Assembly (NCBI GenBank): GCA_951406725.2
Contig: OX597820.1
Location: 115,816,001 to 115,880,000, forward strand
Length of the DNA stretch: 64,000 bases
Direction of reading: 5' to 3'
Source of the DNA: Octopus vulgaris
Taxonomy: Eukaryota
The position numbers were made by a program, and so were the translations under genes. Position 1 is the stretch's first letter. Every line of letters starts with the position of its first letter. Positions 1 to 31,310 of this stretch are shown here, piece after piece. The notes beneath the pieces are model-generated. The model was not told the DNA's origin. It did not search any database and saw nothing but the letters and a program-made list of their open reading frames with translations.

Positions 1-432
1 AAGGTAACTGAGAAAACCAGGGAGTGTAGTATGTACCTATTCTGTTCTCAGGTGATTAAGGAAGTGATGAGTTAAGGGATGAAATGTGGGTGGTGGCAGA
101 AGAAGGTTGATGTTGATCTGTTAGAGATCTGTTTATTATTAGGCAGCATGGGTACTTCAGCTGTAGTTTGCAGGCAGGGGACATGCCAGTATCCGCAACA
201 GAAGTTTTGGCTCTCAAACATGCTACAAGGCAAGGCCTGTGTTTAGCAGTCTTTTACTAAGACATACTCTCAACCTAGAAATAGGTGCCATCTTTGGTAA
301 GGGGCATCGTATCTATATAGGGGTTAAGCAGTCTGATGGTAAATAACATGTCCAGAGAAAAATATTACTTTCATTCATTTATTTAAGATAATAATACTAT
401 TATTATTATTATTAATTTCAATATTATTGTAG

Positions 433-468
433 AACTTACTAAAAAGAAAACGCAAAAGCAACAGAAAG
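433..468 (+). CDS. Microexon type A1 (36 nt, phase 1-1; ELTKKKTQKQQK)
   Basis: ttgtag|AACTTACT...CAGAAAG|gtaaga; homologous to exons at 4014, 7016, 9943. Confidence 0.75.
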
Positions 469-3400
469 GTAAGAATTTTTAATGCTTTCTTTTATGAGTC
501 TCTCATTTTGACCCTCTGGCATTTAAACTGGCCAGATCCAGCCTCTCACTTCTATCCTACAATGTCAGTCTAAAAACAAACAATCACGTCGTTGAAATCT
601 TGAAGCTACGAGACAGTGCAAAGCATTACACTTGACAGAATCACCTGAATGGGTAGCTTCTCCCTTCCATAACTGCTTTTGGAAATTGGTCTCAAGAAAA
701 ATCTATTAAGATAATATAGAGTTTGGAGTTGCTGAAAGAAAGCAGGAGAAATGAACCATTCAAAAGAAGTCTTGTCACGATTGTCAGAAATAAGCCTATC
801 AAGTTTCTGCAAGTGTGTTTTAGATTCTGGTATCAATGTCAGATTATCCTATCAGAATAGGATAATCTGTAGCCACAGAGAGGAGGATATGCACATTCAC
901 CAAATCGTGACCCTTTAGTATTTAAACCAGCCATAATCGGTCAAAATATTTAACTTGTTTTATGTTCAGACCAGCCAGATCTGGCCTCTTGCACCTCCTC
1001 TACAATGTCATTTCAAAAATAAACACTGACATCATTGAAGTCTCAAAGCTATGGAGATAATGCGTGATGTAAAACAATGTGAATAAATAAACATTACATT
1101 TAACAGCATAATCAAATGCTAAAAGGTTAAAGCTATAATGCTACAGAGCTGATGCTTAATAAGGTCAGTAGGCCTTTGTAGTCCCATGTCTTTTGGAATG
1201 TAATAGAAAGTTGGAACCAGTTTGGCTTTATTATTTTGTAATTTACGTCAGATATTTGTCAGTCTCATTCATAACCAATTGAAGCCATTGTGTCATAGTA
1301 ACAATTGTGTTAATTGGTTTTATGCTATGAATATGTTTTTTTTTCTTTCTTTCAGAAGCAACAACTCCTACACCAAAGACTGGGCAAACCAATGCTTTAA
1401 AAGGTAAACAATTTTGTTGTTGTTGTTAGATAATTTTAAATGTTAATGTTGCTTCTACATGTTGTGCCTAATTAGCACAAACGTCTTCGATGCAACGGCT
1501 TCCACACTTTAGTGTTTTCTTTGTTGTTTTTCCTTTATAGAAAGTGGGAAAAATAAGAAACATAATACCAGTGGAGGAAATGTGACAGATGGATCTACTG
1601 GAGAAGGTAGAATAATATTTAGCTACTGAAATATATATTGCTGCTTTAGAATTTTAATTTAATTTGCATTAAAAGAAAGCAAAACAAAAGTTCTAAGAAA
1701 TTGATGGCATCAGTAAACTACTTCTAATTCAAGCCCCGTTAATCAGGTTATCATCTCATTTGGTGCCTTAACCAGTTTGTTCTTATCTCATTTATGTTGG
1801 CTGTGTGGTAAGTAGCTTGCTTACCAACCATTTGGTTCCGGGTTCAGTCCCACTGCGTGGCACCTTGGGTCGACCAAAGCCTTGAGAGCGGATTTGGTAG
1901 ACGGAAACTGAAAGAAGCCTGTCGTATATATACATATATGTGTGTGTGTATATGTTTGTATGGCTGTTTGTCACCCCAACATTGCTTGTCAGCCAATGCT
2001 GGTGATTATGTCCCTGTAACTTAGCGGTTCAGCCTAAGAGACCGACTGAATAAGTACTAGGCTTACAAAGAATAAGTCCTGAGGTCTAAAGGTGGTGCTC
2101 CAGCATGGCCACAGTCAAATGACTGGAACAAGTAAAAGAATAAAAATCCACCCTCACTCCAGAACCAATTCTATTCCTCCTCATCTTCCTCCAGCCCTCT
2201 GCTCTTTCCCCTCTCCTATACTCAATCCTTAACACCTCCAGTCCTCTGTATCACTTCACCTATATTCCCTCCTGCTCTGTACCTTGAGGGTGTGTCCTAA
2301 TACACATCCATCACTCTCTCTATCTTTCTCTTAGCCTTTCTCTCTCTCCCTGCTTCTCCAACTGGGCTGTCCTTGTAGATATGTGCCTTGTAACAAGGCA
2401 CCTATTTCTGTTTCCCTCTGTTATTCTTTTAACTTCTCATCAACTGGCACAAAGCTACCTCCCTCAATATTGCTCCCACCCCCCACCCACAGTCGAGGGA
2501 ACTTTGTTTTGTCTTGCAAGATTTTTTGGTGACCTTGCTGGGTACCACATAAAAAACATCTAGAACTCTTTGTAAAATGTTTGGTATTAGGAAGGGCATC
2601 CAACCATAGAAACCATGTCTAAACAGACAATTGGAGCTTGATGCAGGCTTTTGACTTGCCAGCCTTTGTCAAACTGTCTGACCTGTGCCAGCAAGGAAAA
2701 TGGTGTTGATGACGATGTCCTGAGAAATATCAGACCAAGAACGGTTGGTTAAATTCTGTTATGACATCTTAAGGTACAAATAAAATTGAGGATTGATGAG
2801 AAAACTCACTAAAGACACCTTAGATATTCACTTGGGGCTAAACTGTATAACGTGTTTATTTTGTATAAAGAATACAACATATTAACCCTTTTGTTACCAA
2901 CCCAGCTGAAACCACCTCTGGCTCTGTTGTACAAATGTCTTGTTTTCATAAGTTTTGAATTAAAATCTTCCACCAAACTTTAGTCACAATTTATATTCCT
3001 AACACTAGCTGAATGATAACTAAGTTATTTCACTAAATTCTTTGTTATATTTAGAATTAATTGAAAGAAACACAGAACATTTCAACAGAAATACAGTAAC
3101 AAAAGGGTTAAGATCCACTGAAATTCTTAGCCATGCGATCTCCTTTCTGCTGCTCTGGGAATATTTATCAACAAACTGTATAGTGTGGGAAAAAAGCATT
3201 CATCGTCATCATCATGTCACTTCTACATGTGTGTCTGATTAGCACAAGCATCTTTGTTTTCTTTTGTTGTTTTTGCTTTATAGAAAATGGGAAAAATAAG
3301 AAACATAATAGCAGTGGAGGAAATGTGACACACACGGCAGTTTCATGTTTTTTTTTGTGTGTGCAAATTTGTGTATGTGGTGCTCCCTAGCAGATTACTA

Positions 3401-6400
3401 ACGCAAGGGAGGATAATCATTCCTTCAACGTCTTTGGCGGAATTAGAAGATGGAATCAGAAAGTTAGCATTAAGGAAAATGATGCTTTGGATCTGCATAT
3501 TTATTTGATTTGTTGGTTTCTTGATGTGAAATAATGTTCATATGAGTTGTTAGAATGTTTCTGAATTGCTTGTTGTCATTGTTCCATTCAGCAGAAATAC
3601 ACTTGTTGCTAACAATCATTGTAGACTCAGTCAGTCAACAAATAAACTTCACGAGGTTTTGCAATGTTGTGAGAGAACATCCCTGTTATTATTTTTTATT
3701 TTTTTATTAGCGTTCAACTCAATCACTTTGCCTGCATCAAATGGAATTTGGCAAGATCTGCTACCAAGATCCCATTCCATTATTTCTTTTGTTTGAGCCT
3801 GGTGCAGCCTACTGGCTTGCCAGTCCCCAATCAAACTGTCCAACCCATGCCAACATGGAAAACGGACGTTAAACAATGATGACGATAATGATTTTCTTAT
3901 GCAATCCCATACTGTGTCATCCTGTACCTTCCTAGAACTTTTTTGTCAGTCATTGTGATTATTATTGTTATCATTATTGTTGTTATTATGATTTAATTTC
4001 AATATCATTGTAGAACCTGTTAAAAAGAAGACAAAACACAAGCAACCGAAAGGTAAGCTTTTCTTCTCCGTCGAATTTCTTATCCTTTCATATTCATAAT
4101 TGCTTTTGAAAATTAACTTCATCTGATATTTGGGTCTCGGAATATATCTAACGAGTTCACAAATGGAGTTTGCTGCAGTTGCAGTGGAACAAGTGACTGA
4201 ATACATTAAAAGAATCAATTTTTATTAGTTAACTATTTGTCAGAAATGTGTTTGTGGAGGCACATGGCCTAGTGGTTAGAGCAGTGGACTCGCAGTCGAG
4301 GGATCGCGGGTTCGAATCTCAGACCGGGCGATGTGTGTGTTTATGAGCGAAACACCTAAGCTCCACGCGGCTCCGGCAGAAGGTAATGGCGAAACTTCTG
4401 CTGACTCTTTCGCCACAACTTTCTCTCACTCTTTCCTCCTGCATCTTGCAGCTCACCTGCGACGGACCAGCGTCCCATCCAGGTGGGGAACCTATATGCC
4501 CAGAAACCGGGAAACTGGCCCTTATGAGCCAGGCATGGTTCGAGAAGGAACAAACAACAAACAGAAATGTGTTTGCTTGCTTGCAGGTCGAGAGTGCCAG
4601 TATTTCTGGATCCAGTTGGCAATTAGTTTGCTGAAAGCTGCATATAATAAGTAGACAACACCAAACAAACATGTAAACAGGATTTGTTATACCACACTTG
4701 GCATAAAAAAGATGTTCACACGTCATCATATATATATTTAGAATCAGCAAGATGAAAATAGTTTAATACATGCTAAAAACTGCCTATCCAAAATTTAACA
4801 CTGGGACTGGTTCTGGGTTTAACATAATGAATGTGTGTGTGTGTGGTGTCATGTCTGAAAGGAGTGTGTTCATAATGTACTCAAGAACATGCTGAATTTG
4901 GTGCTGAAAAGGGCTATTTATAAGTTATGTTTGACCCTTTCGTTACCAACCCGGCTGAAACTGGCTCTGGCTCTGAGTATAAATGTCTTGTTTTCATAAG
5001 TGTTGAATTAAAATCTCCCACCAAACCTTAGTCACAATTTATGTTCCTAACACTAGCTTAATGATAACTAAGTTATTTTACTAAATTCTTTGTTATATTT
5101 AAAATTAATTGAAAGAAACAGAGAATCTCAAAATAAATACATTAACGAAAGGGATAAGGAAACTTCTAGAGCAATCTGGAGAAGCCGTCTTGTGGACACT
5201 GGCCACCGGTAGGGCAATAGCTTGGCTGCACACCTGATCAAGCCATTGCTGTGTCGTGACATGAAAGTCATAATATGGCAATGCAAGTTCACATCCTGCT
5301 ACCAGTTCATCTACAATTTGTGAGAGATTGTTTTAGATTTTGTTAGCTGAATGTTTTAGGATTCCATGTAAAAGAAGAATATTTATGTGCTCAAAGGTGC
5401 TGGCCACAGCAGCATCTTTAAAGCTCCATTGCAACAGCATTGAGGCTTAGTAAGCAGTGATTGGTGAGCATTTTGTAAAATATTTATTTCTTTACTACCC
5501 ACAAGGGGCTAAACACAGAGGGGACAAACAAGGACAGACAAAGGGATTAAGTCGATTACATCAACCCAGTGTGAAACTGGTACTTTATTTATCGACCCTG
5601 AGATAATGAAAGGCAAAGTCGACCTCGGTGGAATTTGAACTCAGAATGTAACGACAGATGAAATACTGCTAAGCATTTCTGCCAGCTCGCTGCCTTTATA
5701 AAATATTGTCATCTCGTGTGCTGTGGATTGTAATGCAGTGTAGGAACAGATCCGACATATTTAGTTTGTAGGTGACCAAATTAGATATTTGTCTGGCTCT
5801 AGTTCTACTTGCTTGCTTGCAGATGGCTGAATCTAGTATTCCATGGCAATAATTGTGATAATTGGTGGTTTTTATGCTATAAATAAGTTTCTTTTCTGTT
5901 TCAGAAGAAACAACAACTACAGCAAAAGCTGGGCAAAACAATACCTCGTCAGCTTCAAAAGGTAAACAGTTTTATTTCTGTTAAATAACTTTAGATATTA
6001 ACATTTGAAGCATTTGTGTCTAAATAGCAGAAACATCTTTGGTATGACAATTTTCCATCTTTTATTTTTTCTTTGTAGAAAATGGTAAAAGAAGAAATCC
6101 AATAACAGCGGAGAAACTTTGCAAAACGGATCTGCTGGAGAAGGTAGAAAACTTATTGAAATATTTTGTTGCTGTTTTAGAATTTTGATTTAGAATACAA
6201 TTGCAGCATGTAAGGTGTTTGTACGCCATTTAAGAAACACACAAAAACCGTTCGATTCACTTCAACATTTAAGTTTAATTTGTCAAAATATTTTCGGCGC
6301 TTTAAGACCGCGACCTGTTCACTGTGCTATGCAAGTACATCTCCGATTTAGAATACATGAAAAGAAAAATATCAAATCAAAAACTCTAGATAAATTGTAG

Positions 6401-8672
6401 TTTTCTTTAAGATGGCCTTCAATTTGTATATCATTAAGTAAGAGCCAGCTCTGTCTGCAACATTTGACCTCTTGTTACTCTTTCTATATAAGGCAGTCCT
6501 CAATTTCTAGGACAAAGAACACTCCTCTTACGTGAGATTGATGGAATTATGTCACTTTCTGATGATATATTTGTAAGAGGCAGCTCGAAGGCAATATGTG
6601 AAGTATTAGATGGTATAGTTAGATAACTTGTCCAGTGAAATATGTTTTCCTTTAAAACAACAAAATAGCAAAGGCAGAGAGCTTCTTGCAAAAAGGAAAA
6701 GTTTAAAAAGTATTTCAGGTGAATGGAGTAAAGAAGTGTGAATATTTGCAGAACCATTCATGTTGATTGTTGAGTGCAGACTGGTTGGTACTGTATTGAC
6801 TCACATTTCTTGACTATGTTCACTACTGACAATGGGCCTTTACACCTGAAATATATGAAGTTTAATGAAGTTGTCCCTTTTAGCATTGTAAGAAGCTCTC
6901 TGCCTTCGTTATTTTGTTATTCTACTTCTTTATCATATTGCTCCAAGCTGGCCGTCCTACTCTTCTTTTTTAGTTTTGCTTATTTATAATATTCTTCATT
7001 TCAATATCATTGTAGAACCTGTTAAAAAGAAGAAAAAACACAAGCAACAGAAAGGTGAGATTGCTCTTCCATTTCTAATTTGATGTCTGGTACCTTAAAA
7101 GTTTGCATGTTTTTTCACACCTGTTGTGAGTTGGTATGGTTTGCTGCAGTTGATGGGAAAGATTTAAAAAGAAACAAAAAAACTCAAATTTTTGTTTGGT
7201 TACGATTATCAGAAGTGAGTTCATCATTTAACGTCCGCTTTCCATGCTAGCATGGGTTGGACGATTTGACTGAGGACTGGTGAACCAAATGGCTGCACCA
7301 GGCTCCAATCTGATCTGGCAGAGTTTCTACAGCTGGATGCTCTTCCTAACACCAACTATTCTGAGAGTGTAGTGGGTGCTTTTACGTGCCACTGGCATGA
7401 GGGCCAGTCAGGCGGTACTGGCAATGGCCATGCTCAAATGGTGTCTTTTACGTGCCACCTGCATAGGAGTCAGTCCAGTGGCACTGGCAACGACCTTGTT
7501 CGAATGTTATGTTCACATGCCACAGGCACAAGTGCCAGTAAGGTGACGCTGGTAACGATCACGCTCAAATGGTGCTTTTTACGTGCCATCAGCACGGAAG
7601 CCAAACAGCTGCTCTGGCAGTGATCCCGCTCGGATGGAGCTGTTTGCGCTCCACTGGCACGGGTGCCAGTCATTGAATTTGGTTCAATTTCAATTTCCCC
7701 ACATCTATAATTTCTGAGAAATAGTTTTAGATTTTCTTATCTAACTGTAATAGGATTTCATCTGAATATGGATCTTGCTCACAGCATATAAGAGAAGGAC
7801 CTGCACACTCCGCAAAATGCTAGCCCCGACATCTCTCAAACATTGCTGAGAATTAATAAGCAACAACTGATGAACATTCTGTAAATCATTATAGTCTTGT
7901 ATTTTGCACAAAATAATAGAAAGTTACAACAAATTTGTTTTACATATTTCATTTGTTGGTTACCGATGAAATACTGTCAGGTTATAATTCTACTCATTCA
8001 TAACAAACTGATGCCATTGTGCCATTGTGTTAATTGGTTTTATGCTATAAATATGTTTTTTTTCCCTTTCTTTCAGAAGAAACAACTCCTACACCAAAGA
8101 CTGGGCAAAACAATGCTTTAAAAGGTAAACAATTTTGTTGTTGTTGTTAGATAATTTTAAATGTTAATGTTGCTTCTACATGTTGTGCCTAATTAGCACA
8201 AACGTCTTCGATGCAACGGCTTCCACACTTTAGTATTTTCTTTGTTGTTTTTCCTTTATAGAAAGTGGGAAAAATAAGAAACATAATACCAGTGGAGGAA
8301 ATGTGACAGATGGATCTACTGAAATGTATATTGCTGCTTTAGAATTTTAATTAAGAGAAAAAATGCAGCAAAATGAAAGCTCTAAAAAGTTGCTAAAAGT
8401 TATCATTAAGCTAGTGTAGAATTTGAATACCTTCAAGTAAATTGTATTTGATCCATCTGTGGACTTTGTGTCAGCTATCAAATAGTCTTTGATTCATTAT
8501 GAAATGGTCCAAAGCATTCTCTTATTTGATTTAATCATTTGCCTCTCCGCCAAATTTTCATTTTAATCCTTCTTTCACTTTTCTGTGCTAATGTGTGTGT
8601 GTGTGTGTGTGTGTGCATCACAATATTGTCGCAAGATTTAGTTTTTTTCTCATCTCATCTTTACACAAGGTA

Positions 8673-8711
<39 letters not shown>

Positions 8712-11700
8712 GTTCTAGAGGGAGCTTTTTGGGAATATTTATAAACAAATTTTTTAATGTGTAAAACTGTTAACCTTCAGTCTTCGTTTTACATATTACA
8801 AACATATTTCTAATGTAATTTTCACATATGTATTATAAGCTGGTGGTGAGGGACACAAAAACTAAGGAAGCGTGATGACTAGATCTGATGGCTTCTTCTC
8901 TGTCACCTCTTCAGCTCCCTGTGGAACTTTTGACCCATCAACATGTCTTTGATTTCTTTCTTTTTGTCCTCCACAATCTTCAGGTACACTTCCCATTTTG
9001 TTTCAAAGGTTGCTGAGAGCGTTCTCAGCTTTACCCGTTCCTAGAAGATTAGGATCTTTAAGGATCATTAAACACTGAGTTCTAATCCTGTACCCTGATA
9101 CGAGAAGGTGCTCCAGCCTCTCCAGTAGTGCTTTAATCTGTGAATGTCCTCACTCTTCCTTTACTCTAAATAAATGGACATCTTTTGCTTTCTGTGGTTT
9201 TCTTAGCAAGAAATGTTTCTCTGCTGTAGATCTGCTAATTCTATGAAGAAACCCCAACCTAAAGGATTTGGCTTGTGTTTAGCAGTCTTTTAATATTATG
9301 CCCACAAACAAGTTGTTGGTGTTATTTTTTTAAATGTCTGAGAGAGCAGCATACCCAGATGTGGAGATTCTGATGGCATTGGTTCTAAACTTGTTCAGTG
9401 AATGTCCATTTTCCCTCCTGACATGTGTTGGTCTGACAGGAGCCAACAAGCCAGAGGACTGCACCAAGCTCCAATGTCTGTTTTTGCATCGTTTCTACAG
9501 CTGGATCCCTTCCTAACGCCAACCACTTCCCAGAATGTACTGAGTGCGATCACCAAGTACTGAGTGAGATCACCAAGTAATTTCCAGGACAAGATCCTCC
9601 TTCAACTGAGGGAGGAGTAAATTTGAGGGATATGGCTTTATGCCAGAAGGTGAGAGGTGTGCCTGAAATGCCATCATTTACAGGACATTAACCACCAGTG
9701 TTGTTTCTTTCTTTAAACCTTTCCATTGCAATTAATGGTTTTTGTTACAGTTAATTTTGAAAATAGGAAAAATTTGTCACGGGATTGTCAATGGAGTTCC
9801 AACCAACCATAGGTTGGTCAAAGGATCATGACAATGAGAGATTAAAGTCTGAGAGAGGGACAGGAAGCTGGTGTTTTGCTATAGGGAAGTGTATTGTTTT
9901 ATAATTGTTTATTATTATATTTGAATTTCAATATCATTGTAGAGCCTGCCAACAAGAAGAAAAAACACCAAAAAGGTAGGGTTTTATTCTTCTTAAATTC
10001 TATCCTCTTTCATGATTCTGTCATTCAATTAGCATATTAAAGTTATATGTGGGTTTTTTTGTTTTCATGTTTACTTTTTTGTTCTTTTGGATATTAGCTC
10101 AACCGATATTTTGGTCTCAAAAAACAAATCTAATGAATTCAATATTGGTTTGCTACAGCTGAAGGGAAAAAATGAGATTCAACATTTGTTTGGTTACCAT
10201 TGTCAGAAATGAGTTCATCTTCAGTTTCTGAAAAGTTGTTTCAGATTTTGATTTCTGAATGTAAGAGAAATTCCATCTGAATATGGTAACAGGCACTGAG
10301 AGAAGGAGATGCACACTCACCAAGATATTGGCCTCAGCAGCATCTTTAAAGCTCCATTGCAACAGCACCGATGCTTAGTAAGCAGTGATTGGTGAGCATT
10401 TTGTAAAATATTGTCATCTCGTGTGCTGTGGATTGTAATGCAGTGTAGGAACAGATCCGACATATTTAGTTTGTAGGTGACCAAATTAGATATTTGTCTG
10501 GCTCTAGTTCTACTTGCTTGCTTACAGATGGCTGAATCTAGTATTCCATGGCAATAATTGTGATAATTGGTGGTTTTTATGCTATAAATAAGTTTCTTTT
10601 CTGTTTCAGAAGAAACAACAACTACAGCAAAAGCTGGGCAAAACAATACTTCGTCAGCTTCAAAAGGTAAACAGTTTTATTTCTGTTAAATAACTTTAGA
10701 TATTAACATTTGAAGCATTTGTGTCTAAATAGCAGAAACATCTTTGGTATGACAATTTTCCATCTTTTATTTTTTCTTTGTAGAAAATGGTAAAAAGAAG
10801 AAATCCAATAACAGCGGAGAAACTTTGCAAAACGGATCTGCTGGAGAAGGTAGAAAACTTATTGAAATATTTTGTTGCTGTTTTAGAATTTTGATTTAGA
10901 ATACAATTGCAGCATGGAAGGTGTTTGTAAGTCATTTAAGAAACGCACAAAAACCGTTCGATTCACTTTAACATTTAAGTTTAATTTGTCAAAATATTTT
11001 CGGCGCTTTAAGACCGCGACCTGTTCACTGTGCTATGCAAGTACATCTCCGATTTAGAATACATTAAAAGAAAAATATCAAATCAAAAGCTTTAATAAAT
11101 GAATGAAGTTATTGTTAAGGTAGCCTTTAATTAGTGTCAAATAATCACTGATCTGTCACCAAACACTACAAGTTATCATCTCATTTGATGTGTCCTTGAA
11201 TAGTTTCTGTATCTACAAAATTTAATGTTCATCCTGGGTCGTCAAGTTGCATGGAATTGATTGCCTTAGAAACAGCAAAGTATTTTATTGGGACTTTTGC
11301 CACTTATCGCTTTGTATGCGGTTGAGTATACCTCATACTGCTTCTGTGTTTAGTGAAGCTACTAATGGGTAGGTCAGATTTTCTAACTCTTCCACTGCTA
11401 AAAACAAAGAAACATTAATTATGCAGGGTTCTTAATTTCCGTTCCCAAAGATTTCTTAAATAGTTTGAAGGATAATTCTTCTTCCTCTATTTAGTGTCAG
11501 ACAAAAGTTACTAATCTGTTTTCCGTTAGTAAAAAAGCTAGATTTATTTAGATAACTTATTTTACAACTAAGTATGCGGCCCTTGTTATATTTTCCTTTC
11601 ATTCAGAGGAAACAATGAATCAAAAAAACCAAGAAATATTTCAGACCATTTTCAATGTTATCAACCTGATGAGATTTGTGCCTAACGATCCTAAGCATCT

Positions 11701-14700
11701 TTGATCTGCTTCAATATTTTACTATTTTCTATGATTTGTACAGAGAGTGCAAAAAAGAGGAAACGCAAGATCAGTGAAGAAAGTGTGAAAAGTGGTGATG
11801 GTAGGTTGCTTGTTCATTGGAATATATTGCTGGCATTGTTTTACTTTACTATTGTGTGATTTAATATACGGAAACACTGGACGTGGTCAATGAAATTGAC
11901 TGGGAGAAAGCTATTTTAGCCCTGGATTGCCGTACCTAACCTGCCACATTCTCACATTAAATAAGCAAAGTGTAAAAAATAAAAAGAAATAGGATATATA
12001 TATATATATATATGTGATGTATGGTTAAAGAATTTCTATAACATTCCCCACCCCACCCTAATATCATTTGATTCATTTGCAATCTAATTGATTATATTGA
12101 AGATGAGCATTAATTACAGTGTAAAGTTAACTAGTTATGCTTCCGTAAAGTTGAGGGTTTTAATTCAGTTTTTTTTTTTTTTTTTTTGTAATTTTGTGGT
12201 GAGTTGATTAATGTCCAAAATTCATTTTTATCCATTTATTAGTCACAGTACAATGGCAAGCGAGAGCATTTCTGTTTAGTTTTGTTTCATGGAAGTTTAG
12301 GAGTTTCACTTGAAGCTGGTGCTTTATATTTCTGCTTTAATGATGGAACATTAGCTTCAAATAAGATTGTTTTCTCCAAAGTTATGGCTTGTGCTTGTTG
12401 TTAGTAAAATAAAATAGACATTAGAATTTGGTATTAAAAGTGACTCAGATACTAAGAGAGTAGCTAAACCCTTTCGTTACCAACCCGGCTGAAACCATCT
12501 CTGGCTCTGTAGTACAAATGTCTTGTTTTCATAAGTTTTGAATTAAAATCTTCCACCAAACCTTAGTCACAATTTATGTTCCTAACACTAAGCTTAATGA
12601 TAACTAAAGTACTTAAAGTAATTGAAAGAAATACAGAGCATCTCAAAATACATAGAGTAACGAAAGGGTTCAAGCAAAAATCAGTCTTTTCTATAGATTC
12701 TTTATTTTCAGGTGTTTTTGTTTTCTTTTTCTTTGCTTTTGCTAGTTTTATTTGGCCAAAGTTGATTTATATTCACCATTATTGTAGTATTGTTAGAGAT
12801 TATCCTTGTTTACCCCAGCTGAACAAGAGTTGAGGATGCTTATGATCAAAAGCATTTTCTCATGACCATCCAGTCTTTATAGGGGGGTGGGGTGTCTCAG
12901 ATTACCATATTTGATGGCATAAAAGATGTACAGGCATGAGATGCATCTCAATTTCTAAAGCAGATATGCAGGAAAAACGGTTTTAGTAGATTAAAGCATA
13001 TAATCATCCTTATCATCATTTAACGTCCGTTGCCCATGCTGGCATGGGTTGGACAGTTTGACCAGGGCTACTAAGCTGAGAGACTGCACCAGCCTCCAGT
13101 CTGATTTAGCATGATTTCTATGGATGGATGCCCTTCTTAATACCAGAGAGTCTCAATTTTACATATAGGGCCCAGGGGATTTTCTTCAGCAAGAAAGTAT
13201 GCCTTATATGCCATCAATTACGGGACATTGTTTCTTTCTTTAAACCTTTTTGTCACCATATTTGAGTTAATCTTTGTTTATCCCAGCTGAAATCACAATC
13301 AAAATCAAATTCGCTGATGTGGCTGATGACAGCACCACCTGAATGGCATGGGTGCCAGTGGAACGTTAAAGCACCATCCGAGTGCGATCGTTGCCAGGGC
13401 CGCTGACTCAGTCATGTGTTGGTGGCACATAAAAGGCAACATTTGAGCGTGATTGTTGCCAGTATTGCCACTGCAGCTGGACTGGCTCCTGTGCAGGTGA
13501 CACTTAAAAGACACCATTTGAGCATGGCTGTTGCCAGTACCGCCTGACTGGCCCTTGTGCCAGTGGCACGTAAAAAGCACCCACTACACTCTTGGAGTGG
13601 TTGGCATTAGGAAGGGCATCTAACTGTAGAAACTAACTCTGTCCGATCAGATTAGAGCCTGGTGCAACCATCTGGTTCGCCAGTACTCAGTCAAACCATC
13701 CAACCCATACCAGCATGGAAAGCGGACGTTAAACGATGATGATGATTTCTGTTGCAATAAACTGCTTTTGTTACAGTTAATTTTGAAAATATGAAGAATT
13801 TAATAAAATTACTTTGTTGTAATAAAACTGGCGTTTGGAACATGGAATTTTGGTGGAAGAAGGTTTTAATTCCGAACACTTTTAAAACGGAGTTTGGGTC
13901 ATAAAATCAGAAAGTGTTTCAGGTGAGTTGGTATGAAAAGGGTCAAAGATGGTTGGGTGTGGGTCGAGGATCAAACAACCATCCAGAGACTTCTTTATTA
14001 ACTCATTTGTGAGGGTGTAGTGTGTTGGTGTAACAGACCTAAAATCTTCAGTGAGTGTTTGCTGGGAGTCAGTTGTAAGCTAAGATGTAGAGTGATGATG
14101 ATGATGATGTAGATTGATGATGATATGTGGTTAAAGTTTGTAATTTAGTGGAAAATGTCAGGAAAAACTGGTTCATATTTCATTATATAGGTTTATTGAT
14201 CATTGGGAAATATTTGATCAGTTAGGTCTGTTAATTGAGACTTGAACCTGGACACCAACTGGACGGTTGATTGCTTTCTACAGCAAAGCTTTTTGTTGGT
14301 TCTTTCAGACAAGAATAAAACCACCAAACCAAAAGGTGCACAAAGTGACAACTCACCTGCAGCAAAAGGTAATCGGTGTTGGTGCTTGATTGACCATTTT
14401 CCTGTTCACAACTATTTCCACAGTAATTCTTACTCTGGAACTGTCTCCATTCTATGTAAATTCTTTCAGAAAACAATACAGTTGTTCTAAAAATGAAGGA
14501 GCCATTATGTGAATTTCTTCATGTTGTTTCTGTATCAAAGTGTTTGTAGGACTCCACCGCTAGGAAAATAGGTTCTTCCAATTCATAACAGAAAATCCGT
14601 TTGTCTATTTCTGAAAACTCTTGGCATTCTTTGGTATTTTTGCATAAATTTCTCCCTCTTCAATATTGATGCTTTTATTTATCTTCAATAAAACTGAAAC

Positions 14701-17700: not shown

Positions 17701-18331
17701 GACCCTGTGGAGGAGATAAGAAGTGACTGGGATGGCTGGTGATATGTGGCCCTTGAAGAAACACATCCAAATTGGCACCCATCAGCTGTCTGCAGCTTTC
17801 CTTTGATTACACCACTTCTCCTCGCCATCCAGAGCCACATCCTTCTACTCTCCTCTCCAAGCTGTATTTGCTTTAGTTTCAACACACAGTCTCAGATGAA
17901 ATCCCTTGACAGCTTCATGCATTTTCAAAATATAATTTCTGTTTTAGAGAAAAAGAAGAAGAGATCTAAGAGAAGGAAGGGTTCGAAGGCTGATGATAAA
18001 CCCAAAGAGATGATTTTGGGTGAAGATGAAGCAACTACAGAAAAAAAGGCGAAGCAATTCTTAAATGTTTGGTACACAAATAAGACTGAATGGAATTTTG
18101 TAAAAGCCCGTCAGAACTGGTTGGTTCATCATATGTATGATCCTGAAAAGGTCAGTTTTCATGACATTTTAACTTCCTTGCTTTAACCATTATAAAATGG
18201 TCACAGTTAGTGATTTATTAATTACCATTGAATATTTAATATGTACAGGTGTAGCCATGTGGTGTAGGAATTTGCTTCCCAACCACATGGTTTCAGGTTC
18301 AGGCCCAGTGTGTGACACTTTGAGCAAGTGT

Positions 18332-18366
<35 letters not shown>

Positions 18367-21300
18367 ACCATGCCCGCCACAACAGAATCGAGATCCTAAA
18401 ACGAAGGTGCCACATAAAAAGCGTTGGTGTGGATGCTGGTACCATGTCAAAATCACCCAGTATACATTGGAAAGTGATTGAGATTAGGAAGGGCCTCCAG
18501 CCATAGAAACCACACCAAACAGACTATGGAACCTAGTATGTCCCCTGGCCTTGCCAGTTCCTGTTGATCTGTCCAAACCATGGCAGTATGGAAAACGGAT
18601 GTTATATGTTGATGATGTTCTAAACCTAATCCTAATCTTCCAGCTTTTTTCCCTATAAATTCAAATTCTATTGAAATTATCGTTAATGTCCTGCTTATAT
18701 TTTCAGATCCCTGACACAACATTTCAGACTTTACTCAAGTACCTTGCTGGCATGAAAGGTCGTAGCCGAGAGGAAACTAAGAAGCAAGCACAGAGCTTGT
18801 TGGATGCCGTTACCAAAGACAAAAACGCACTTCATAAAAAAATCAAGTTGTCTGGTAAGTTAAGGATTCCTGTATAATTTACAGATTTTTAATTAAAGAT
18901 ATTTTTCACCTGAAAGTTTTGTAGTCTGCTGGAGGTTGAGTTTTCATGTTAAACCATTGAGAGATTCTACAAAATGTTGTGAATGTTTATACGATTCATC
19001 CAAGTCGTTGGACGTTAAAAAACATGGGTCTATGACATTTTGGCACACAGCCATTCAGGCATTGCCTATTTGGTGGTGCTGATTCAATGCTGACTTATTT
19101 GACATCAGGCATTAATCTTAAACCTTTAGCATTTAAACCAGCCATATCCAGCCAAAATATCCTGTTTTATATTCAAACCTGCCAGATCCAACCTCTCATA
19201 CCTACCCTACAATGTCATTCTAAAAATATGCAATTGTATCATAGAAATCTTGAAGCTCCAAGATAATATATGATTAATCCAAAACAAAGTGGATTAATAA
19301 GCATTAGATTTGACAATAATCTGGATGCTAAAGGATTAATCTTCAATATTTCTCTCGTTCTTTCTCTTCTTCTCTCTTTAGGCATGTGGCCTAGTGTGTC
19401 ATGCTCACGATCTTGCAACCATGGTTTCGATTCCCAGACTGGATGTGCACCGTGTTCTTGAGCCAAAAAAATGTCATTTCGCGTTGCTCCAGTCCACTCA
19501 GCTGTAAATGTGTGACCACCCTGTGACCGATTGGTGTGCTAGGGTGATAGGGTGACTCAGGAGAATCCCCTAAACGGAGGTCTTGTGAGCCCCGTTTTGT
19601 ATTTGGCAATTGAAAGGATGAATTGTACAACCCATTCAGTGAATCCCATTTGGTTGGTACAGGTTCAGCATCTCTCTCTCTCCCTCTCCATATTTCTCTC
19701 TATGTGTATGAGGAGAGGGAGAGTGTTTACATCAGTTGTGCTCAATTAATAATCTCTTACTCTCTCTCTCTCTCTCTCTCTACTTATGACACTTGTGAAG
19801 ACCTGTTGAGGCAAGTGAAAATCAAAATCAAATCAAATCAAATCAAACCAAATCAAAATAGATGAACATCAATGGAATTTGTATCTTTGTGGTACCAGTA
19901 CCGGTGGCACACAAGAAAACCATCCGAACGTGGCCGTAGCCAGTACCGCATCGACTGGCCTCTGTGATGTGGGCACATAACAAACACCATCCGATCGTGG
20001 CCGTCCGCCAGCCTCATCTGGCACCTGTGTCGGTGGCACATAAAAACACCAACCGAAGACCCGGCAAGACTAGTCAGGCCATAACCCATGGCCCCTACTT
20101 GGGACGTAGTCAGTCCACCTGTGCATACCTTCCTTCCTTCTTGTGACACTTGTGAAGACCTGTTGAGGCAAGTGAGAATCAAATCAAATCAAATCAAAAT
20201 AGATGAACATCAATGGAACTTGTATCTTGTGGTACCAGTGCCGGTGGCACACAAGAAAACCATCCGAACGTGGCCGTAGCCAGTACCGCATCGACTGGCC
20301 TCCGTGCAGTGGGCACGCAACAAACACCATCCGATCATGGCCGTTCGCCAGCCTCATCTGGCACCTGTGTCGGTGGCACATAAAAACACCATCCGAAGAC
20401 CCGGCAAGACTAGTCAGGCCATAACCCGTGGCCCCTACCTGGGACGTAGTCAGTCCACCTGTGCATACCTTCCTTCTTGTGACACTTGTGAAGACCTGTT
20501 GAGGCAAGTGAAAATCAAATCAAATCAAAACAAATCAAAATAGATGAGCATCAATGGAATTTGTATCTTTGTGGTACCAGTGCCGGTGGCACACAAGAAA
20601 ATCATCCGAACGTGGCCGTAGCCAGTACCGCATAGACTGGCCTCCATGCTTTGGGGACGTAACAAACACCATCCGATCGTGGCCGTCCGCCAGCCTCATC
20701 TGGCACCTGTGTCGGTGGCACATAAAAACACCATCCGAGCGTGGCCGTCTGCCAGCTTCGTCTGGCACCTGTGTCGGTGGCACATAAAAACACCATCAGA
20801 GCGTGGCCGTTCGCCAGCCTCGTCTGGCACCTGTGTCGGTGGCACATAAAATAAACCACTACACTCTCGGAGTGGTTGGCGTTAGGAAGGGCATCCAGCT
20901 GTAGAAACACTGCCAGATCTGACTGGCCTGGTGCAGCCTTCGGGCTCCCCAGACCCCAGTTGAACCGTCCAACCCATGCTAGCATGGAAAAAGGACGCTA
21001 AATGATGATGATGATGATGATGTGTGTGTGTGTGTTTTTTTTTTTTCTTGTCTCCATTGCAAAACCATACTACTACCAACACAGACTGAATGTCTGGCTG
21101 AAAAAAACAAACCAATGGTGATATTGGAAAGTGACCAATGTAGAATGGGTTTGGAATGAAATAATCCAGACACAAGGGCTGAAATTTTTTTGGGGGGAAG
21201 GGAAGATGATTGCATTGACCCCAGCATGCAACTGGTACTTTATTTTCTCAACCCTGAAAGGAAGAAAGACCAAGTTGACCATGGTGAAATTTGAACACAG

Positions 21301-22447
21301 AACATCAAGACGGATAAAATGCTGCCAAGCAATTTGCCTGGCATTGCTAATGGTTCTGCCAGTTCAGCATCTTGAAATGGATGTGAGGAGTAATGTCTGT
21401 AGGAAGAGACATTAGACTGTGGAGGAGGAGGAGGGAAGTGTAGAAGCTGAAATGTGCCTCTGCTCGAAATGAAAGAGGTGGATGAGATGTTGATTTGTCA
21501 TGGGTGAGAGCCATGGCTGGAGCAAGTAGAAAGTGAGGAAGAGATGGACCAAAGTGGTGAAGGCAGACATCAGGGCTACTGAACCTACGAATGAGGGTCT
21601 GCAACAAGAAGCAGTAAACTGATGGACGGAAGAAGACTTATCCAACTGATGCAAACAGAGAAATGGGCATAAAAATTGCTGATGATGAGCCTTGATAAGA
21701 TTTGTGCCTGAAACACAGGGAAACTGATTGAGTCAGTGACAACTTTTGATGCATAAAGAGTTGGTCTTGAGCTTAGCCAAAACTATTTTCAGCCCTTTAG
21801 CATTTGTATTATTCTGCTCAGATCCAATACATAACTTTTTCGTTTTTGGAATTGGTTTGCAAGATTCTTTATATGAGTTTGTGTGTTGAAGCATATTCTA
21901 TTGTCTGGGGAGAGTCATTTTCTTTTTGTGCCTTATAATGTAACTCACCAGTAAAATTTCCACTTTTTTCTTATTTTTATTTTCCTAAAATTTTCGTTGT
22001 GTCTTGCAACCTTTTCAATAGTTTTGACTCTCAATAGTCAAAACTATTGAAAAGGTTGCAAGACGCAACGAAAATTTTAGGAAAATAAAAATAAGAAAGA
22101 AGTGGGAATTTTACTGGTGAGTTACATTATAAGGCAGAAAAAGAAAATGACTCTCCCAAGACACAACAGAATACATAACTATTCACGTTGTTTTGAATTA
22201 ATCATCCATTATCTTGTAGCTTTGGGATTTTGATGATGTGAATGTTTAATTTTCGAATGACATTGTAGGGTTGGTGCAAAAGGCCAGATCTGACTGGTTA
22301 ACTACTAAAGGATTAAATATATTTATCAAATGACTGAAACAGTGAATGTATTGTTTGCAATTTCTCTTTCTAATTTCCTTTTCTTTTGTAGGGGAACCCG
22401 GACTTATTCAACGAACCAGAGCTGAACAAGTCATCCAAATACTGTAG
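433..22447 (+). CDS. C7orf50: C7orf50-like / WKF-domain (DUF2373) gene, 5'-incomplete, spliced. In-frame exons: 433-468, 1356-1403, 1541-1606, 4014-4052, 5905-5961, (6079-6143, 65 nt, frameshifted), 7016-7054, 8077-8124, 9943-9975, 10610-10666, 10784-10849, 11744-11800, 14309-14368, 17948-18150, 18707-18854, 22392-22447
   Basis: All listed exons have AG/GT boundaries and compatible phases. The last three exons read ...AKQFLNVWYTNKTEWNFVKARQNWLVHHMYDPEK|IPDTTFQTLLKYLAGMKGRSREET...|GEPGLIQRTRAEQVIQIL*, matching the WKFxKxRQxWLLxxxY..IP...YLxGLxGxAR...R..Q(V/I)LQ(L/I)L pattern of the C7orf50/DUF2373 family. Confidence 0.85.
910..1130. mobile_element. piggyBac-type MITE family 1 (CCCTTTAG...CTAAAGGG, TTAA sites); other copies ~510-640 (partial), 19118-19338, 21792-22315 (interrupted)
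   Basis: Short TIRs ccctttagca/tgctaaaggg abutting TTAA; shared internal sequence among copies. Confidence 0.6.
1356..1403 (+). CDS. Microexon type B1 (48 nt; EATTPTPKTGQTNALK)
   Basis: Polypyrimidine tract-ttcag|...TTAAAAG|gtaaac; near-identical to 8077-8124. Confidence 0.75.
1541..1606 (+). CDS. Microexon type C1 (66 nt; ESGKNKKHNTSGGNVTDGSTGE)
   Basis: ttatag|AAAGTGGG...GGAGAAG|gtagaa; open, length a multiple of 3. Confidence 0.75.
1798..2145 (+). mobile_element. tRNA-derived SINE family A; other copies 24941-25322, 36581-36972, 47195-47615, 63563-63730 (+), 63745-64000 (-), partials at 18246, 33190, 44580
   Basis: Head TGGCTGTGTGGTAAG...GGTTCAGTCCC (A/B-box-like), CCTTGGGCAAGT core, internal (TA)n/(TG)n, tail ACTGAAACAAGTAAAAGAG. 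Confidence 0.8.
2882..3111. mobile_element. piggyBac-type MITE family 2; other copies 4934-5156, 12467-12671, 23647-23867
   Basis: TTAA-CCCTTTTGTTAC...GTAACAAAAGGG-TTAA termini; four highly similar ~225-bp copies. Confidence 0.75.
3284..3340 (+). pseudogene. Type C exon copy without an in-frame GT donor (probable pseudo-exon)
   Basis: Acceptor and first 47 nt match exon C1 (ENGKNKKHNSSGGNVT), then diverge to CACACGGCAGTTTC; no GT in phase 1. Confidence 0.5.
4014..4052 (+). CDS. Microexon type A2 (39 nt; EPVKKKTKHKQPK)
   Basis: ttgtag|...CCGAAAG|gtaagc. Confidence 0.75.
4256..4560 (+). mobile_element. tRNA-derived SINE family D; other copies 34927-35292, 38626-38895
   Basis: A box TGGCCTAGTGG, B box GGTTCGAATC, shared body GAAACACCTAAGCTCCACGCGGCTCCGGCAG. 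Confidence 0.75.
5485..5698 (-). mobile_element. SINE family B with 9-bp TSD TAAAATATT; other copies 28300-28533(-), 32371-32605, 42880-43100, 45633-45850, 46558-46770 (+), 15370-15540, 21190-21365 (-)
   Basis: Head GGCGAGCTGGCAGAA...GAGTTCAAATTC and core GGTCGACTTTGCCTTTCATCC; TSD at 5476-5484 and 5699-5707. Confidence 0.8.
5905..5961 (+). CDS. Microexon type B2 (57 nt; EETTTTAKAGQNNTSSASK)
   Basis: tttcag|...TCAAAAG|gtaaac; near-identical to 10610-10666. Confidence 0.75.
6079..6143 (+). CDS. Microexon type C2 (65 nt; one A shorter than paralog 10784-10849, so frameshift or sequencing error)
   Basis: GGTAAAAGAAG here vs GGTAAAAAGAAG in the paralog; splice sites intact. Confidence 0.5.
7016..7054 (+). 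CDS. Microexon type A3 (39 nt; EPVKKKKKHKQQK)
   Basis: ttgtag|...CAGAAAG|gtgaga. Confidence 0.75.
7222..7700 (-). mobile_element. SINE family C with (GAT)n tail, probably RTE-mobilised; many copies, e.g. 13290-13746, 22720-23180 (+), 24467-24685, 29122-29580, 29692-29887, 40587-40825, 49668-49852 (-)
   Basis: Shared GGTTGGCGTTAGGAAGGGCATCCAGCTGTAGAAAC...CCAACCCATGCTAGCATGGAAAGCGGACGTTAAACGATGATG; the RTE fragment at 56340 ends in the same (GAT)n. Confidence 0.8.
8077..8124 (+). CDS. Microexon type B3 (48 nt; EETTPTPKTGQNNALK)
   Basis: tttcag|...TTAAAAG|gtaaac. Confidence 0.75.
8262..8325 (+). pseudogene. Type C3 pseudo-exon; donor removed by a 28-bp deletion
   Basis: Matches exon C1 up to GGATCTACTG, then jumps to the intronic sequence that follows the second CTACTG (1623-1628) in copy 1. 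Confidence 0.7.
9943..9975 (+). CDS. Microexon type A4 (33 nt; EPANKKKKHQK)
   Basis: ttgtag|AGCCTGCC...CAAAAAG|gtaggg. Confidence 0.75.
10610..10666 (+). CDS. Microexon type B4 (57 nt; EETTTTAKAGQNNTSSASK)
   Basis: tttcag|...TCAAAAG|gtaaac. Confidence 0.75.
10784..10849 (+). CDS. Microexon type C4 (66 nt; ENGKKKKSNNSGETLQNGSAGE)
   Basis: ttgtag|...GGAGAAG|gtagaa. Confidence 0.75.
11744..11800 (+). CDS. Diverged C-type microexon (57 nt; ESAKKRKRKISEESVKSGD)
   Basis: gtacag|AGAGTGC...GGTGATG|gtaggt; upstream intron resembles the B-C intron (tgtgcctaa...catctttgat). Confidence 0.7.
14309..14368 (+). CDS. Diverged B-type microexon (60 nt; DKNKTTKPKGAQSDNSPAAK)
   Basis: tttcag|AC...GCAAAAG|gtaatc; phase 1-1. 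Confidence 0.7.
14815..15368 (-). mobile_element. Helentron-associated (HINE/DINE-1-like) element; another at 46190-46541 (+)
   Basis: Subterminal hairpins (tccgcc ttagcaa aggcaga; gcgctctctgagtgc), a GTCTGT-like tract and the GGATTT..ATGAAACTT / CAAATCTGGTGAAAATCCG motif typical of HINEs. Confidence 0.5.
16250..17770 (+). mobile_element. Degenerate RTE-type LINE remnant
   Basis: Fragments resembling RT (AFIGMEKVFDRV), a Cys-rich segment (CLVCKNGIGINSVYCTYCK...CSGI) and a C-terminal RRLHWYGH motif; many stops and frameshifts. Confidence 0.65.
16422..16533 (+). repeat. 38-bp tandem repeat x3 inside the LINE remnant
   Basis: GTAGCAAGGTGTAGATGAAATGGCTCATGACGGCTGAG repeated three times. Confidence 0.9.
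17948..18150 (+). CDS. C7orf50: C7orf50-like exon carrying the WKF motif (here WNF)
   Basis: ttttag|AG AAA AAG...CCT GAA AAG|gtcagt; WNFVKARQNWLVHHMYDPEK. Confidence 0.9.
18707..18854 (+). CDS. C7orf50: C7orf50-like penultimate exon
   Basis: tttcag|ATC CCT GAC...TCT G|gtaagt; IPDTTFQTLLKYLAGMKGRSREET. Confidence 0.9.
19787..21022 (+). repeat. Head-to-tail trimer of a family C SINE 5' region (units start 19787, 20144, 20480) ending in a single (GAT)n tail
   Basis: TGACACTTGTGAAGACCTGTTGAGGCAAGTG recurs at 357- and 336-bp spacing; the third unit continues through ~59-bp subrepeats into the SINE tail. Confidence 0.9.
21837..22169. mobile_element. Foldback insertion (arms ~21894-22030 / 22037-22173) flanked by AATACATAACT direct repeat, nested in a piggyBac MITE
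   Basis: Near-perfect ~135-bp inverted arms around a CTCAAT loop; AATACATAACT at 21826-21836 and 22170-22180. Confidence 0.8.
22392..22447 (+). CDS. C7orf50: C7orf50-like terminal coding exon
   Basis: ttgtag|GG GAA CCC...ATA CTG TAG; RAEQVIQIL*; candidate ATTAAA poly(A) signal at 22514-22519. Confidence 0.85.
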
Positions 22448-23413
22448 CAGTCCTTACAGTCATAGGCATTGTCAAAACATTTGATATTTTTTTGTCATTT
22501 TTGTCTTTTGGCAATTAAAAAGTATGTTTTAAAATACCTATTCAATGCAAACGGTTTCTTTTGTTATCAATCATCAGAGTGTGAATTAAAGACACAAAAG
22601 CAGGCAGCTATAATGGTCTTGTGCTTTACGGCTCACTAAATATCAGAAAACATTATTTTCAGCCATAAATACAAAACTATGTTTGCCAACATAACACGGC
22701 AGTCCTGGTTTAGGACGAATTTCCTTCTTTGGACACTAAACTCTGCTTGCGAAGACCTGTTGAGGCAAGTGAAATCAAAATCAAATTCGATGACTGGCAT
22801 CCGTGCTAGCGGGGTGCAAAGAGCACCATACGAGTATGATCGTTGACAGAGCGGCTAACCAGCTTCCGTGCCAGTGGCACATAAAAGGCACCATTCAAGC
22901 ATGATTGTTACCAGCGTCGCCTTACTGGCACTTGTGCCCGTGCTAGTAGAGTGCCAAGAGCACCATCCGAGCGTGATCGTTGCCAGAGCAGCTAACTGGA
23001 TTCCGTGCCAGTGGCACGTAAAAGGGCACCATTCGAGCGTGATTGTTACCAACGCCGCCTTACTGGCACCTGTGCCAGTGGCATGTGTAAAAAGATTTGA
23101 TCGAGGTCGTTGCCAGTACTGCCTGACTGGCCCCCATGCCAGTGGCATGGAAAGCGGACATTAAACGATGATGATGATGTTGCTGTAATTTAGACCCAGG
23201 GGACATCGTCTGGGGCTAAATTACTGCAACATTCGTCCTAAACCAGGACTGCTATGTTATGTTGGCAAATAATCTTTACTCCAAAGTACTGTTGCTGAAT
23301 ATTTCTCTTTGAGAGATTTACAAATAGTAATTTTATGTGTTTTGTGTCTTACAGGGGTTTGGCGAAACAAAATTACGCCCCCTAAAGCGTACTTGGGGTT
23401 TCAATGGTTAAAG

Positions 23414-30955: not shown

Positions 30956-31287
30956 CTCGTTTCTCTTTTTATGTGCTACCCATGTTACTTATTTGGATAA
31001 CATTTATTTCTGTTGTATTTGAGGAAATTTTGTCTGTTCAAACAAGAGAACGTGACATTTTAGTCAATGAAGAATTATTAAAAAATGTTTCCCTACAAAT
31101 ATATTTTAGAAACGAAGTATTGTTATTTTACTCTAACAAATATTATAGTTGGTTACAAACATTGTTGTAAAGATTTATAACGAGAATAATTTTGATTTCT
31201 GTCAACTATGAATATTCGGCCCAATATTCACGGGGGACAGATATGGAAAACCGGTTAGTTTTGGTATGACACCGGTAATCACTAAGA

Positions 31288-31302
31288 GTTGCCAAGTAAA
31301 CA
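31288..31302 (+). promoter_or_regulatory. Candidate overlapping RFX X-box-like / forkhead (GTAAACA) site just before the TMEM237 ATG
   Basis: GTTGCCAAGTAAAC (X-box-like with mismatches) overlapping GTAAACA at 31296-31302. Confidence 0.3.
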
Positions 31303-31310
31303 AAGACAAC

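What the first reader, a model, noticed from the sequence alone, without database searches (positions are those of the whole stretch)
433..14368. Tandemly duplicated A-B-C microexon cassette builds a modular lysine-rich N-terminus on a C7orf50/WKF protein
Seen: 12 in-frame microexons of 33-66 nt, all phase 1-1 and multiples of 3, in three homology classes (A: EPVKKKxKHKQQK; B: EETT..K.GQNN..K; C: E.GKxKK.N.SG.......S.GE). They are ordered A-B-C / A-B'-C' / A-B-psiC / A-B'-C' / C'' / B'', i.e. a higher-order dimer repeat, and the flanking introns are also homologous. Known: C7orf50/DUF2373 proteins have a basic low-complexity N-terminus, and fungal relatives are linked to nucleolar/pre-ribosome function. 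Inference: a lineage-specific, still-expanding array of basic NLS/NoLS-like modules. Every exon can be skipped without frameshift, so splicing could combinatorially tune charge and length of the disordered region.
Basis: partly seen in the sequence, partly recalled or inferred. Interest (0 to 1): 0.72.

Follow-up and report, generated by a model that had tools for sequence, protein, structure and literature searches.

The report
Duplicated short exons lengthen octopus C7orf50
An octopus gene of the C7orf50 family (nucleolar ribosome-assembly proteins in humans and yeast) lengthened its lysine-rich tail by copying a three-exon block four times; most copies are spliced in together, one exon is variably skipped, several are dead or unused, and parts were likely re-homogenised by gene conversion, so this is a tidy but likely ordinary case of exon duplication.

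Summary
The array is real. It is the N-terminal coding part of the genome's only WKF/C7orf50 locus, already annotated in Octopus vulgaris. There are four A-B-C units of 33-66 nt phase-1 exons.

Corrections:
- The second-unit C exon is 65 nt in this assembly but 66 nt in RNA.
- The last two exons (11744, 14309) are off the main transcript.
- Only C1 shows clear skipping: included in 1 of 4 runs.
- A single dimer duplication does not fit. The B-C blocks are 98-99% identical between units 1/3 and 2/4, while the flanks of their A exons are 83-86%, which points to local gene conversion.
- Charge density hardly changes with the array (0.11-0.12 per residue, like the closest relatives); length and basic clusters grow (4 to 10).

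Best reading: birth-and-death exon duplication in a tolerant disordered tail, mostly constitutively spliced, not a combinatorial tuning device. Building disordered regions from duplicated symmetric exons is a published pattern.

The parts
433..468 (+). Exon A1 (36 nt, phase 1-1, basic)
   Evidence: A1-B1 GT..AG junction in 4 of 4 runs
1356..1403 (+). Exon B1 (48 nt)
1541..1606 (+). Exon C1 (66 nt), the one variably included exon; net charge 0
   Evidence: B1-C1 and C1-A2 junctions in 1 of 4 runs, B1-A2 skip in 4 of 4
3284..3330 (+). Dead partial copy of C1 (acceptor kept, 3' end and donor lost)
   Evidence: 45/47 identical to C1; read-through hits a stop; no junction among the rows shown
4014..4052 (+). 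Exon A2 (39 nt, basic)
5905..5961 (+). Exon B'2 (57 nt); differs from B'4 by one letter (C at 5945, T at 10650)
6079..6143 (+). Exon C'2; 65 nt in the assembly, 66 nt in RNA (likely homopolymer error, or a private allele)
7016..7054 (+). Exon A3 (39 nt, basic)
   Evidence: C'-A3 junction in 3 of 4 runs, A3-B3 in 4 of 4
8077..8124 (+). Exon B3 (48 nt)
8262..8321 (+). Pseudo-exon C3: 28-nt deletion between two short direct repeats removes the donor; skipped
   Evidence: alignment; B3-A4 junction in 2 of 4 runs plus a matching loose end in a third
9943..9975 (+). Exon A4 (33 nt, basic)
10610..10666 (+). Exon B'4 (57 nt)
10784..10849 (+). Exon C'4 (66 nt); the C' exon is spliced directly to 17948
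   Evidence: C'-W1 junction in X5, matching loose end in X1; C'2 and C'4 cannot be told apart at this junction
11744..11800 (+). Exon X, diverged C-class copy; off the main path; minor transcripts start at its acceptor and read through its donor
   Evidence: absent from 5 of 5 annotated proteins
14309..14368 (+). Exon-like segment Y, weakly B-like; RNA depth at intron background
   Evidence: absent from 5 of 5 annotated proteins
1329..1574 (.). Homogenised tract shared with 8049-8295 (98.0%)
5695..6190 (.). Homogenised tract shared with 10400-10896 (99.4%, one gap)
17948..18150 (+). Exon W1: last basic cluster and first half of the WKF domain
18707..18854 (+). Exon W2: second half of the WKF domain
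22392..22449 (+). Last coding exon W3 to the stop codon
   Evidence: loose end behind 18855 in X5 matches it; annotated proteins end with it

Best explanation
This is the octopus C7orf50/WKF gene, whose lysine-rich N-terminal tail was lengthened by tandem copies of a three-exon A-B-C block that are mostly spliced in together, were likely homogenised in patches by gene conversion, and likely serve as a longer nucleolar-targeting and RNA-binding tail with unchanged charge density. Shown: four units; the path A1-B1-(C1)-A2-B'-C'-A3-B3-A4-B'-C'-W1-W2 in spliced RNA (403 or 425 aa); two dead C copies; two exons off the main path; near-identical B-C blocks inside diverged flanks. Inferred: old duplications were tolerated because phase 1-1 exons keep the frame and the region is likely disordered; later ectopic conversion paired units 1/3 and 2/4; single exons then decayed (birth and death). 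Inferred from orthologs: the lysine runs of the A exons act as nuclear/nucleolar signals and RNA-binding patches, and the WKF domain works in early 60S ribosome assembly. The length of the array is probably near-neutral rather than a regulated switch.
For: Junctions at the predicted exon ends, all GT..AG, in four studies. Single-copy junction depths are similar and the twice-used B'-C' junction is about their sum (X5: 1630-2370 against 3949; X22: 78-127 against 183). Both B' letters occur 1:1 in a second organism label (2188 of 4398). Tract against A-exon flank: 493/496 vs 106/123, Fisher p=3e-10; 241/246 vs 64/77, p=1e-5; sharp edges in sliding windows. Net charge per residue is 0.109 without the array and 0.115-0.123 with it; the three closest relatives have 0.092-0.111; basic clusters rise from 4 to 10. 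Tail length of 300-322 aa is matched by two named molluscs (311 and 281 aa). Human C7orf50 is nucleolar through lysine-dependent NLS/NoLS motifs (PMC13178565, abstract and passages). The N-terminal 85 aa of yeast Rbp95 bind rRNA (PMC9508819, passages).
Against: All RNA evidence is from assembled contigs, which drop rare variants, give one flat depth and collapse identical exons; the run type is a guess by the tool; only 15 of 523 and 15 of 97 joint rows were shown. The O. vulgaris annotation lists 5 distinct proteins (7 accessions) that skip different units, which taken at face value would mean more alternative splicing. C1 skipping is real in one run. Conversion was not told apart from local re-duplication by an outgroup. 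In X7 only the copy-2 letter of B' is seen (852 of 852). No localisation or disorder prediction was run for the octopus protein, and the tail does not align with those of the relatives (32-33% coverage).
Confidence: 0.7

Rival explanations
1. The array is a regulated combinatorial cassette: tissues choose how many basic modules to include and so tune nucleolar retention.
For: All exons are frame-neutral. C1 is included in about 43% of X1 paths (1785 against 2334) and in none of three other runs. The annotation has five proteins of 320-426 aa. Human nucleolar residence depends on three NoLS lysines (PMC13178565 passages).
Against: Junction depths fit one path. The only variable exon has net charge 0. 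The unit-skipping annotated junctions (B1-A4, A2-B'4, C1-A3) join exons with near-identical twins and bypass the frameshifted C'2, and one model fuses B' and C' across the gap, so mis-mapping could explain them (inference). No UGC within 25 nt of any of 13 array acceptors.
Confidence: 0.12
2. C1 inclusion is genetic, not regulated: some haplotypes have lost the C1 donor, for example by conversion from unit 3, which carries the donor deletion inside a block otherwise 98% identical.
For: Inclusion is about half in one run and zero in three, as for a heterozygote and homozygotes. The deletion lies at the edge of the unit 1/3 tract. C1 has the same donor as the constitutive C' exons.
Against: No DNA was laid over C1. 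The tissues of the runs are unknown. The reference, with an intact donor, has annotated models both with and without C1.
Confidence: 0.3
3. One recent dimer duplication (units 1-2 copied to 3-4) made the array, which is still expanding.
For: B1-C1 pairs with B3-C3 and B'2-C'2 with B'4-C'4. Units 2 and 4 share an inserted repeat after C'.
Against: A1/A3 are 83% and A2/A4 85% identical while A2/A3 are 95%. A-B introns outside the tracts are about 66-87% alike. Runs of two organism labels show no extra unit. An old dimer step followed by conversion remains possible.
Confidence: 0.07
4. The duplicated units are an assembly artefact.
For: A 99.4% identical tract and a one-base homopolymer gap in C'2.
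Against: RNA passes C'-A3-B3-A4. Both B' letters are expressed 1:1. DNA-like runs give higher depth over the tract than beside it (74 vs 51; 8.9 vs 5.2-7.4). Only the missing A looks like an error.
Confidence: 0.01

Closest known systems
C7orf50 / yeast Rbp95 (Ycr016w), WKF domain family PF10180 (DUF2373)
   Same: Full-length WKF match (78-79 bits, cut-off 25), C-terminal domain behind a basic low-complexity tail, single locus. Nucleolar role in human and yeast (PMC13178565, abstract and passages; PMC9508819, passages).
   Different: The tail is about 300-322 aa and carries a strong internal repeat (z 25) that three close unnamed relatives lack (z 0-0.9). Localisation is untested here.
Disordered proteins assembled from tandemly duplicated symmetric exons (calpastatin, MAP2, ameloblastin; PMC3632108, abstract and section 19 read)
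   Same: Class 1-1 symmetric exons, internal tandem duplication, low-complexity product.
   Different: The repeated unit is a three-exon block with dead copies and near-identical intron-spanning tracts; the modules have no known separate function.
Nopp140/NOLC1 and treacle central repeats (bioRxiv 10.1101/513978, abstract read)
   Same: Nucleolar proteins with alternating basic and other low-complexity motifs, encoded by several exons in vertebrates. Repeat-number alleles in Drosophila show no discernible phenotype.
   Different: Unrelated proteins; their spacers are acidic motifs, whereas B and C here are T/N/S/G-rich and near neutral.
Neural (eMIC/SRRM4-type) microexons (PMC8797185, passages read)
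   Same: Short, frame-preserving exons.
   Different: 33-66 nt, mostly constitutive, no UGC near the acceptors, arisen by tandem duplication.

Membership tests
C7orf50/Rbp95 WKF family | WKF domain PF10180 above the curated cut-off | tested here: met
   78.9 bits, profile positions 1-62 of 63
C7orf50/Rbp95 WKF family | Basic low-complexity region N-terminal to the domain | tested here: met
   77-80 K/R in 300-322 aa, net +37
C7orf50/Rbp95 WKF family | Single-copy ortholog | tested here: met
   2 matches among 41 candidates, both exons of this locus; counts from this search are lower bounds
C7orf50/Rbp95 WKF family | Nucleolar localisation, rRNA binding, NoLS acetylation | not testable with these tools
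   Shown only for human and yeast
Tandem duplication of symmetric exons | Same-phase, frame-neutral exons with homologous flanking introns | tested here: met
Tandem duplication of symmetric exons | Copies spliced into mRNA | tested here: met
   11 exons on the spliced path
Simple higher-order (dimer) repeat from one duplication | Uniform identity along units 1/3 and 2/4 | tested here: not met
   98-99% in B-C tracts, 83-86% at A-exon flanks
Intragenic gene conversion | Sharp-edged near-identical tracts inside diverged homologous flanks | tested here: met
Intragenic gene conversion | Paralogous tracts closer within a species than orthologous tracts between species | not testable with these tools
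   No other octopus genome was available; only an N-terminal O. bimaculoides fragment was found
Neural eMIC-type microexons | Very short length (27 nt or less; cut-off recalled) | tested here: not met
   33-66 nt
Neural eMIC-type microexons | UGC close to the 3' splice site | tested here: not met
   0 of 13 array acceptors within 25 nt; feature from PMC8797185 passages
Neural eMIC-type microexons | Neuron-specific inclusion | tested here: inconclusive
   Tissues of the runs are unknown; most exons are included in all runs laid

The most novel reading that the evidence does not exclude
Gene conversion between exon blocks is currently editing the isoform of a ribosome-assembly factor: a donor-killing deletion in unit 3 is being copied onto unit 1, so C1 inclusion segregates as a haplotype. 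Meanwhile selection holds charge density at about +0.11 per residue while ten basic clusters raise the valency that sets nucleolar retention, a natural dial for nucleolar phase behaviour in octopus.
Probability: 0.1. Interest if true: 0.6.

Novelty: new member of a known kind. Interest (0 to 1): 0.3.

Why it matters
It is a compact record of how a disordered nucleolar tail grows: living, variable, dead and unused exon copies lie side by side, charge density stays put while length more than doubles (137 to 300-322 aa), and conversion tracts can be compared within one gene. That makes it a usable test of whether length, valency or charge density of a basic tail sets nucleolar retention. Practically, it shows that the five annotated O. 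vulgaris proteins miss the full four-unit form (403 or 425 aa), likely because of a one-base gap in the assembly. It does not reveal a new mechanism.

Tried and rejected
- Assembly artefact and 'no inclusion': rejected.
- Simple dimer duplication: rejected.
- Y as a clear B-class exon: weak. E3 and E2 as older C- and Y-like copies: z 4.6 and 4.9 among 91 pairs, suggestive only (E3 coordinates were one base off in that script, which the local alignment tolerates).
- Copies of the B'-C' block elsewhere in the genome: none, 4 of 4 matches lie in this gene.
- Other octopus orthologs: three searches and the representative search gave only a 100-aa O. bimaculoides fragment covering the first two exons.
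- No run was on record as RNA; RNA status is inferred from GT..AG joins. No cover or background depth at X and Y in single runs is weak alone; the direct C'-W1 join carries that claim.
- Tandem Repeats Finder does not see the array. ESM Atlas gave only WKF clusters. Two look-ups of earlier scan findings were empty.
- Literature: 'tandem exon duplication'+'octopus' and 'microexon'+'cephalopod' listed nothing on this gene; two searches showed 25 of 222 and 15 of 44 papers, none on cephalopods by title; one search gave nothing relevant by title. Supplements were not read; those of octopus genome papers could list this gene.
- No structure was predicted: the region in question is low-complexity.
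Full report
Setting. The window is G000:C7:115816001-115880000 in a 2.8 Gb genome. The exon at 17948-18150 matches Pfam WKF. Five database proteins identical to it are named Octopus vulgaris hypothetical or WKF-domain proteins, under seven accessions CAI9726312-18. The family profile finds only this locus in the genome. Three coding exons lie upstream of the window (L002:2940-3120, 5544-5627, 6560-6610), and the gene ends at 22449.

Observation. Twelve segments in 433-14368 have AG/GT ends, phase 1-1 and lengths divisible by three. Class homology is far above shuffled controls, and the introns are homologous too. The order is A1-B1-C1-(dead C)-A2-B'2-C'2-A3-B3-(dead C)-A4-B'4-C'4-X-Y. The dead copy at 8262 lost its donor by a 28-nt deletion; the one at 3284 is truncated. 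C'2 is 65 nt, one A short of C'4, and as assembled would stop translation at aa 215 or 237. X is a diverged C copy; Y is at best weakly B-like.

Expression. No run was on record as RNA, but contigs of four runs from four studies join the exons at the predicted GT..AG ends (15 of 523 joint rows shown): A1-B1, B1-A2, A2-B', A3-B3 and W1-W2 in 4 of 4; B'-C' and C'-A3 in 3 of 4; B3-A4 in 2 of 4 plus a loose end; C'-W1 in 1 plus a loose end. B1-C1 and C1-A2 appear only in X1 (1785 and 1709 against 2334 for the skip). In X5 single junctions have depth 1630-2370 and B'-C' has 3949, as expected if both copies collapse; the C'-A3 row in X5 shows only depth 6, so that step is poorly shown there. In one search one X7 contig carries A2, the copy-2 letter of B' and a gap-free C', so C'2 is 66 nt in that animal. 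In X11, a second organism label, both B' letters occur 1:1 and both contigs continue into the five-A form. Two DNA-like runs cross the C' tract without that gap, at raised depth. The bins holding X and Y have depth 0-20 against 430-3000 for B' and C', and none of the five annotated proteins holds X or Y. One X11 contig (depth 45) begins at the X acceptor with 22 unlaid letters and reads through the donor; that frame ends after 19 hydrophobic residues, with AATAAA at 11978. Limits: contigs drop rare forms, have flat depth and cannot tell identical exons apart, so minor unit-skipping isoforms are not excluded. The annotated isoforms skip units, but each such junction has a near-identical twin and bypasses the frameshifted exon, so I do not count them as evidence (inference).

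History. Identity is patchy. Units 2 and 4 are 99.4% identical over 496 nt around B'-C' but 86% at the A-exon flank; units 1 and 3 are 98.0% over 246 nt but 83% at the A flank (Fisher p 3e-10 and 1e-5), with sharp edges. The closest A pair is A2/A3, which crosses the supposed dimer. One recent dimer duplication predicts uniform identity and fails. Older units with later conversion of B-C blocks fit; local re-duplication cannot be excluded without an outgroup. I saw no sign of ongoing expansion.

Protein. The RNA path gives 403 aa, or 425 with C1. The tail grows from 137 to 300-322 aa and from 4 to 10 basic clusters, but net charge per residue stays at 0.109-0.123. Three unnamed relatives at 57-58% identity over the C-terminal third have 0.092-0.111, tails of 207-229 aa and no internal repeat. 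Two named molluscs have tails of 281-311 aa at lower charge (0.045-0.057), one with its own repeat (z 6.6). Long lysine-run tails are thus usual in this family; the exon-block route is what is particular here. Skipping C1 changes length by 22 aa and net charge by zero.

Function, by orthology only. Human C7orf50 is nucleolar, needs an NLS and a NoLS, and leaves the nucleolus when three NoLS lysines are acetylated (PMC13178565; abstract and passages). Yeast Rbp95 is an early pre-60S factor whose N-terminal 85 aa bind rRNA more strongly than the WKF part (PMC9508819; passages). The A-exon lysine runs likely add such patches; this is untested.

Comparison. Disordered proteins built from tandemly duplicated symmetric exons, including class 1-1, are documented (PMC3632108; abstract and section 19). 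Repeat-number alleles of the nucleolar protein Nopp140 have no discernible phenotype in flies (bioRxiv 10.1101/513978; abstract). The exons fail the length and UGC features of neural microexons. Searches listed no paper on this octopus gene.

Verdict. The feature is real and expressed; the family and the mechanism are known. The corrections are one assembly gap, two unused exons, conversion instead of a simple dimer, and largely constitutive splicing. Interest 0.3.

Noticed in passing
window 11744-12130: Minor transcript (depth 45 in X11, about 30 in X5) appears to start at the X acceptor and read through its donor; it would end in a 19-aa hydrophobic tail and lack the WKF domain; AATAAA at 11978.
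   Followed up: partly
window 6079-6143: One-base gap in an A run of the assembly; one annotated protein (P0006) works round it with a fused B'/C' exon, the other four omit C'2.
   Followed up: yes
window 10853: Two DNA-like runs have A for G at donor position +4 of the C' exon, closer to the consensus.
   Followed up: no
window 5474-5694: Interspersed repeat inserted in unit 2 only, with a short target duplication, splitting a 95% tract from a 99% tract shared with unit 4; may mark more than one conversion round.
   Followed up: partly
P0029 (Gigantopelta aegis): A gastropod ortholog has its own internal repeat of lysine-run blocks (z 6.6); exon structure not checked.
   Followed up: no
P0008, P0009, P0011, P0012, P0014: These predicted relatives leave the family sequence at the same place as the W1 donor, suggesting a conserved intron inside the WKF domain.
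   Followed up: no
window 59225-59857: Mariner-type transposase fragment, Pfam Transposase_1, E 2e-24.
   Followed up: partly
window 31212-31622 and 35278-35718: Open frames that look like exons of a neighbouring + strand gene; no Pfam match.
   Followed up: partly
window 50591-51930: Two long minus-strand frames that look like a broken mobile element; no Pfam match.
   Followed up: partly
window 19830-20851: Tandem repeat of period 340 with an internal 62-63 nt repeat in the last intron.
   Followed up: no
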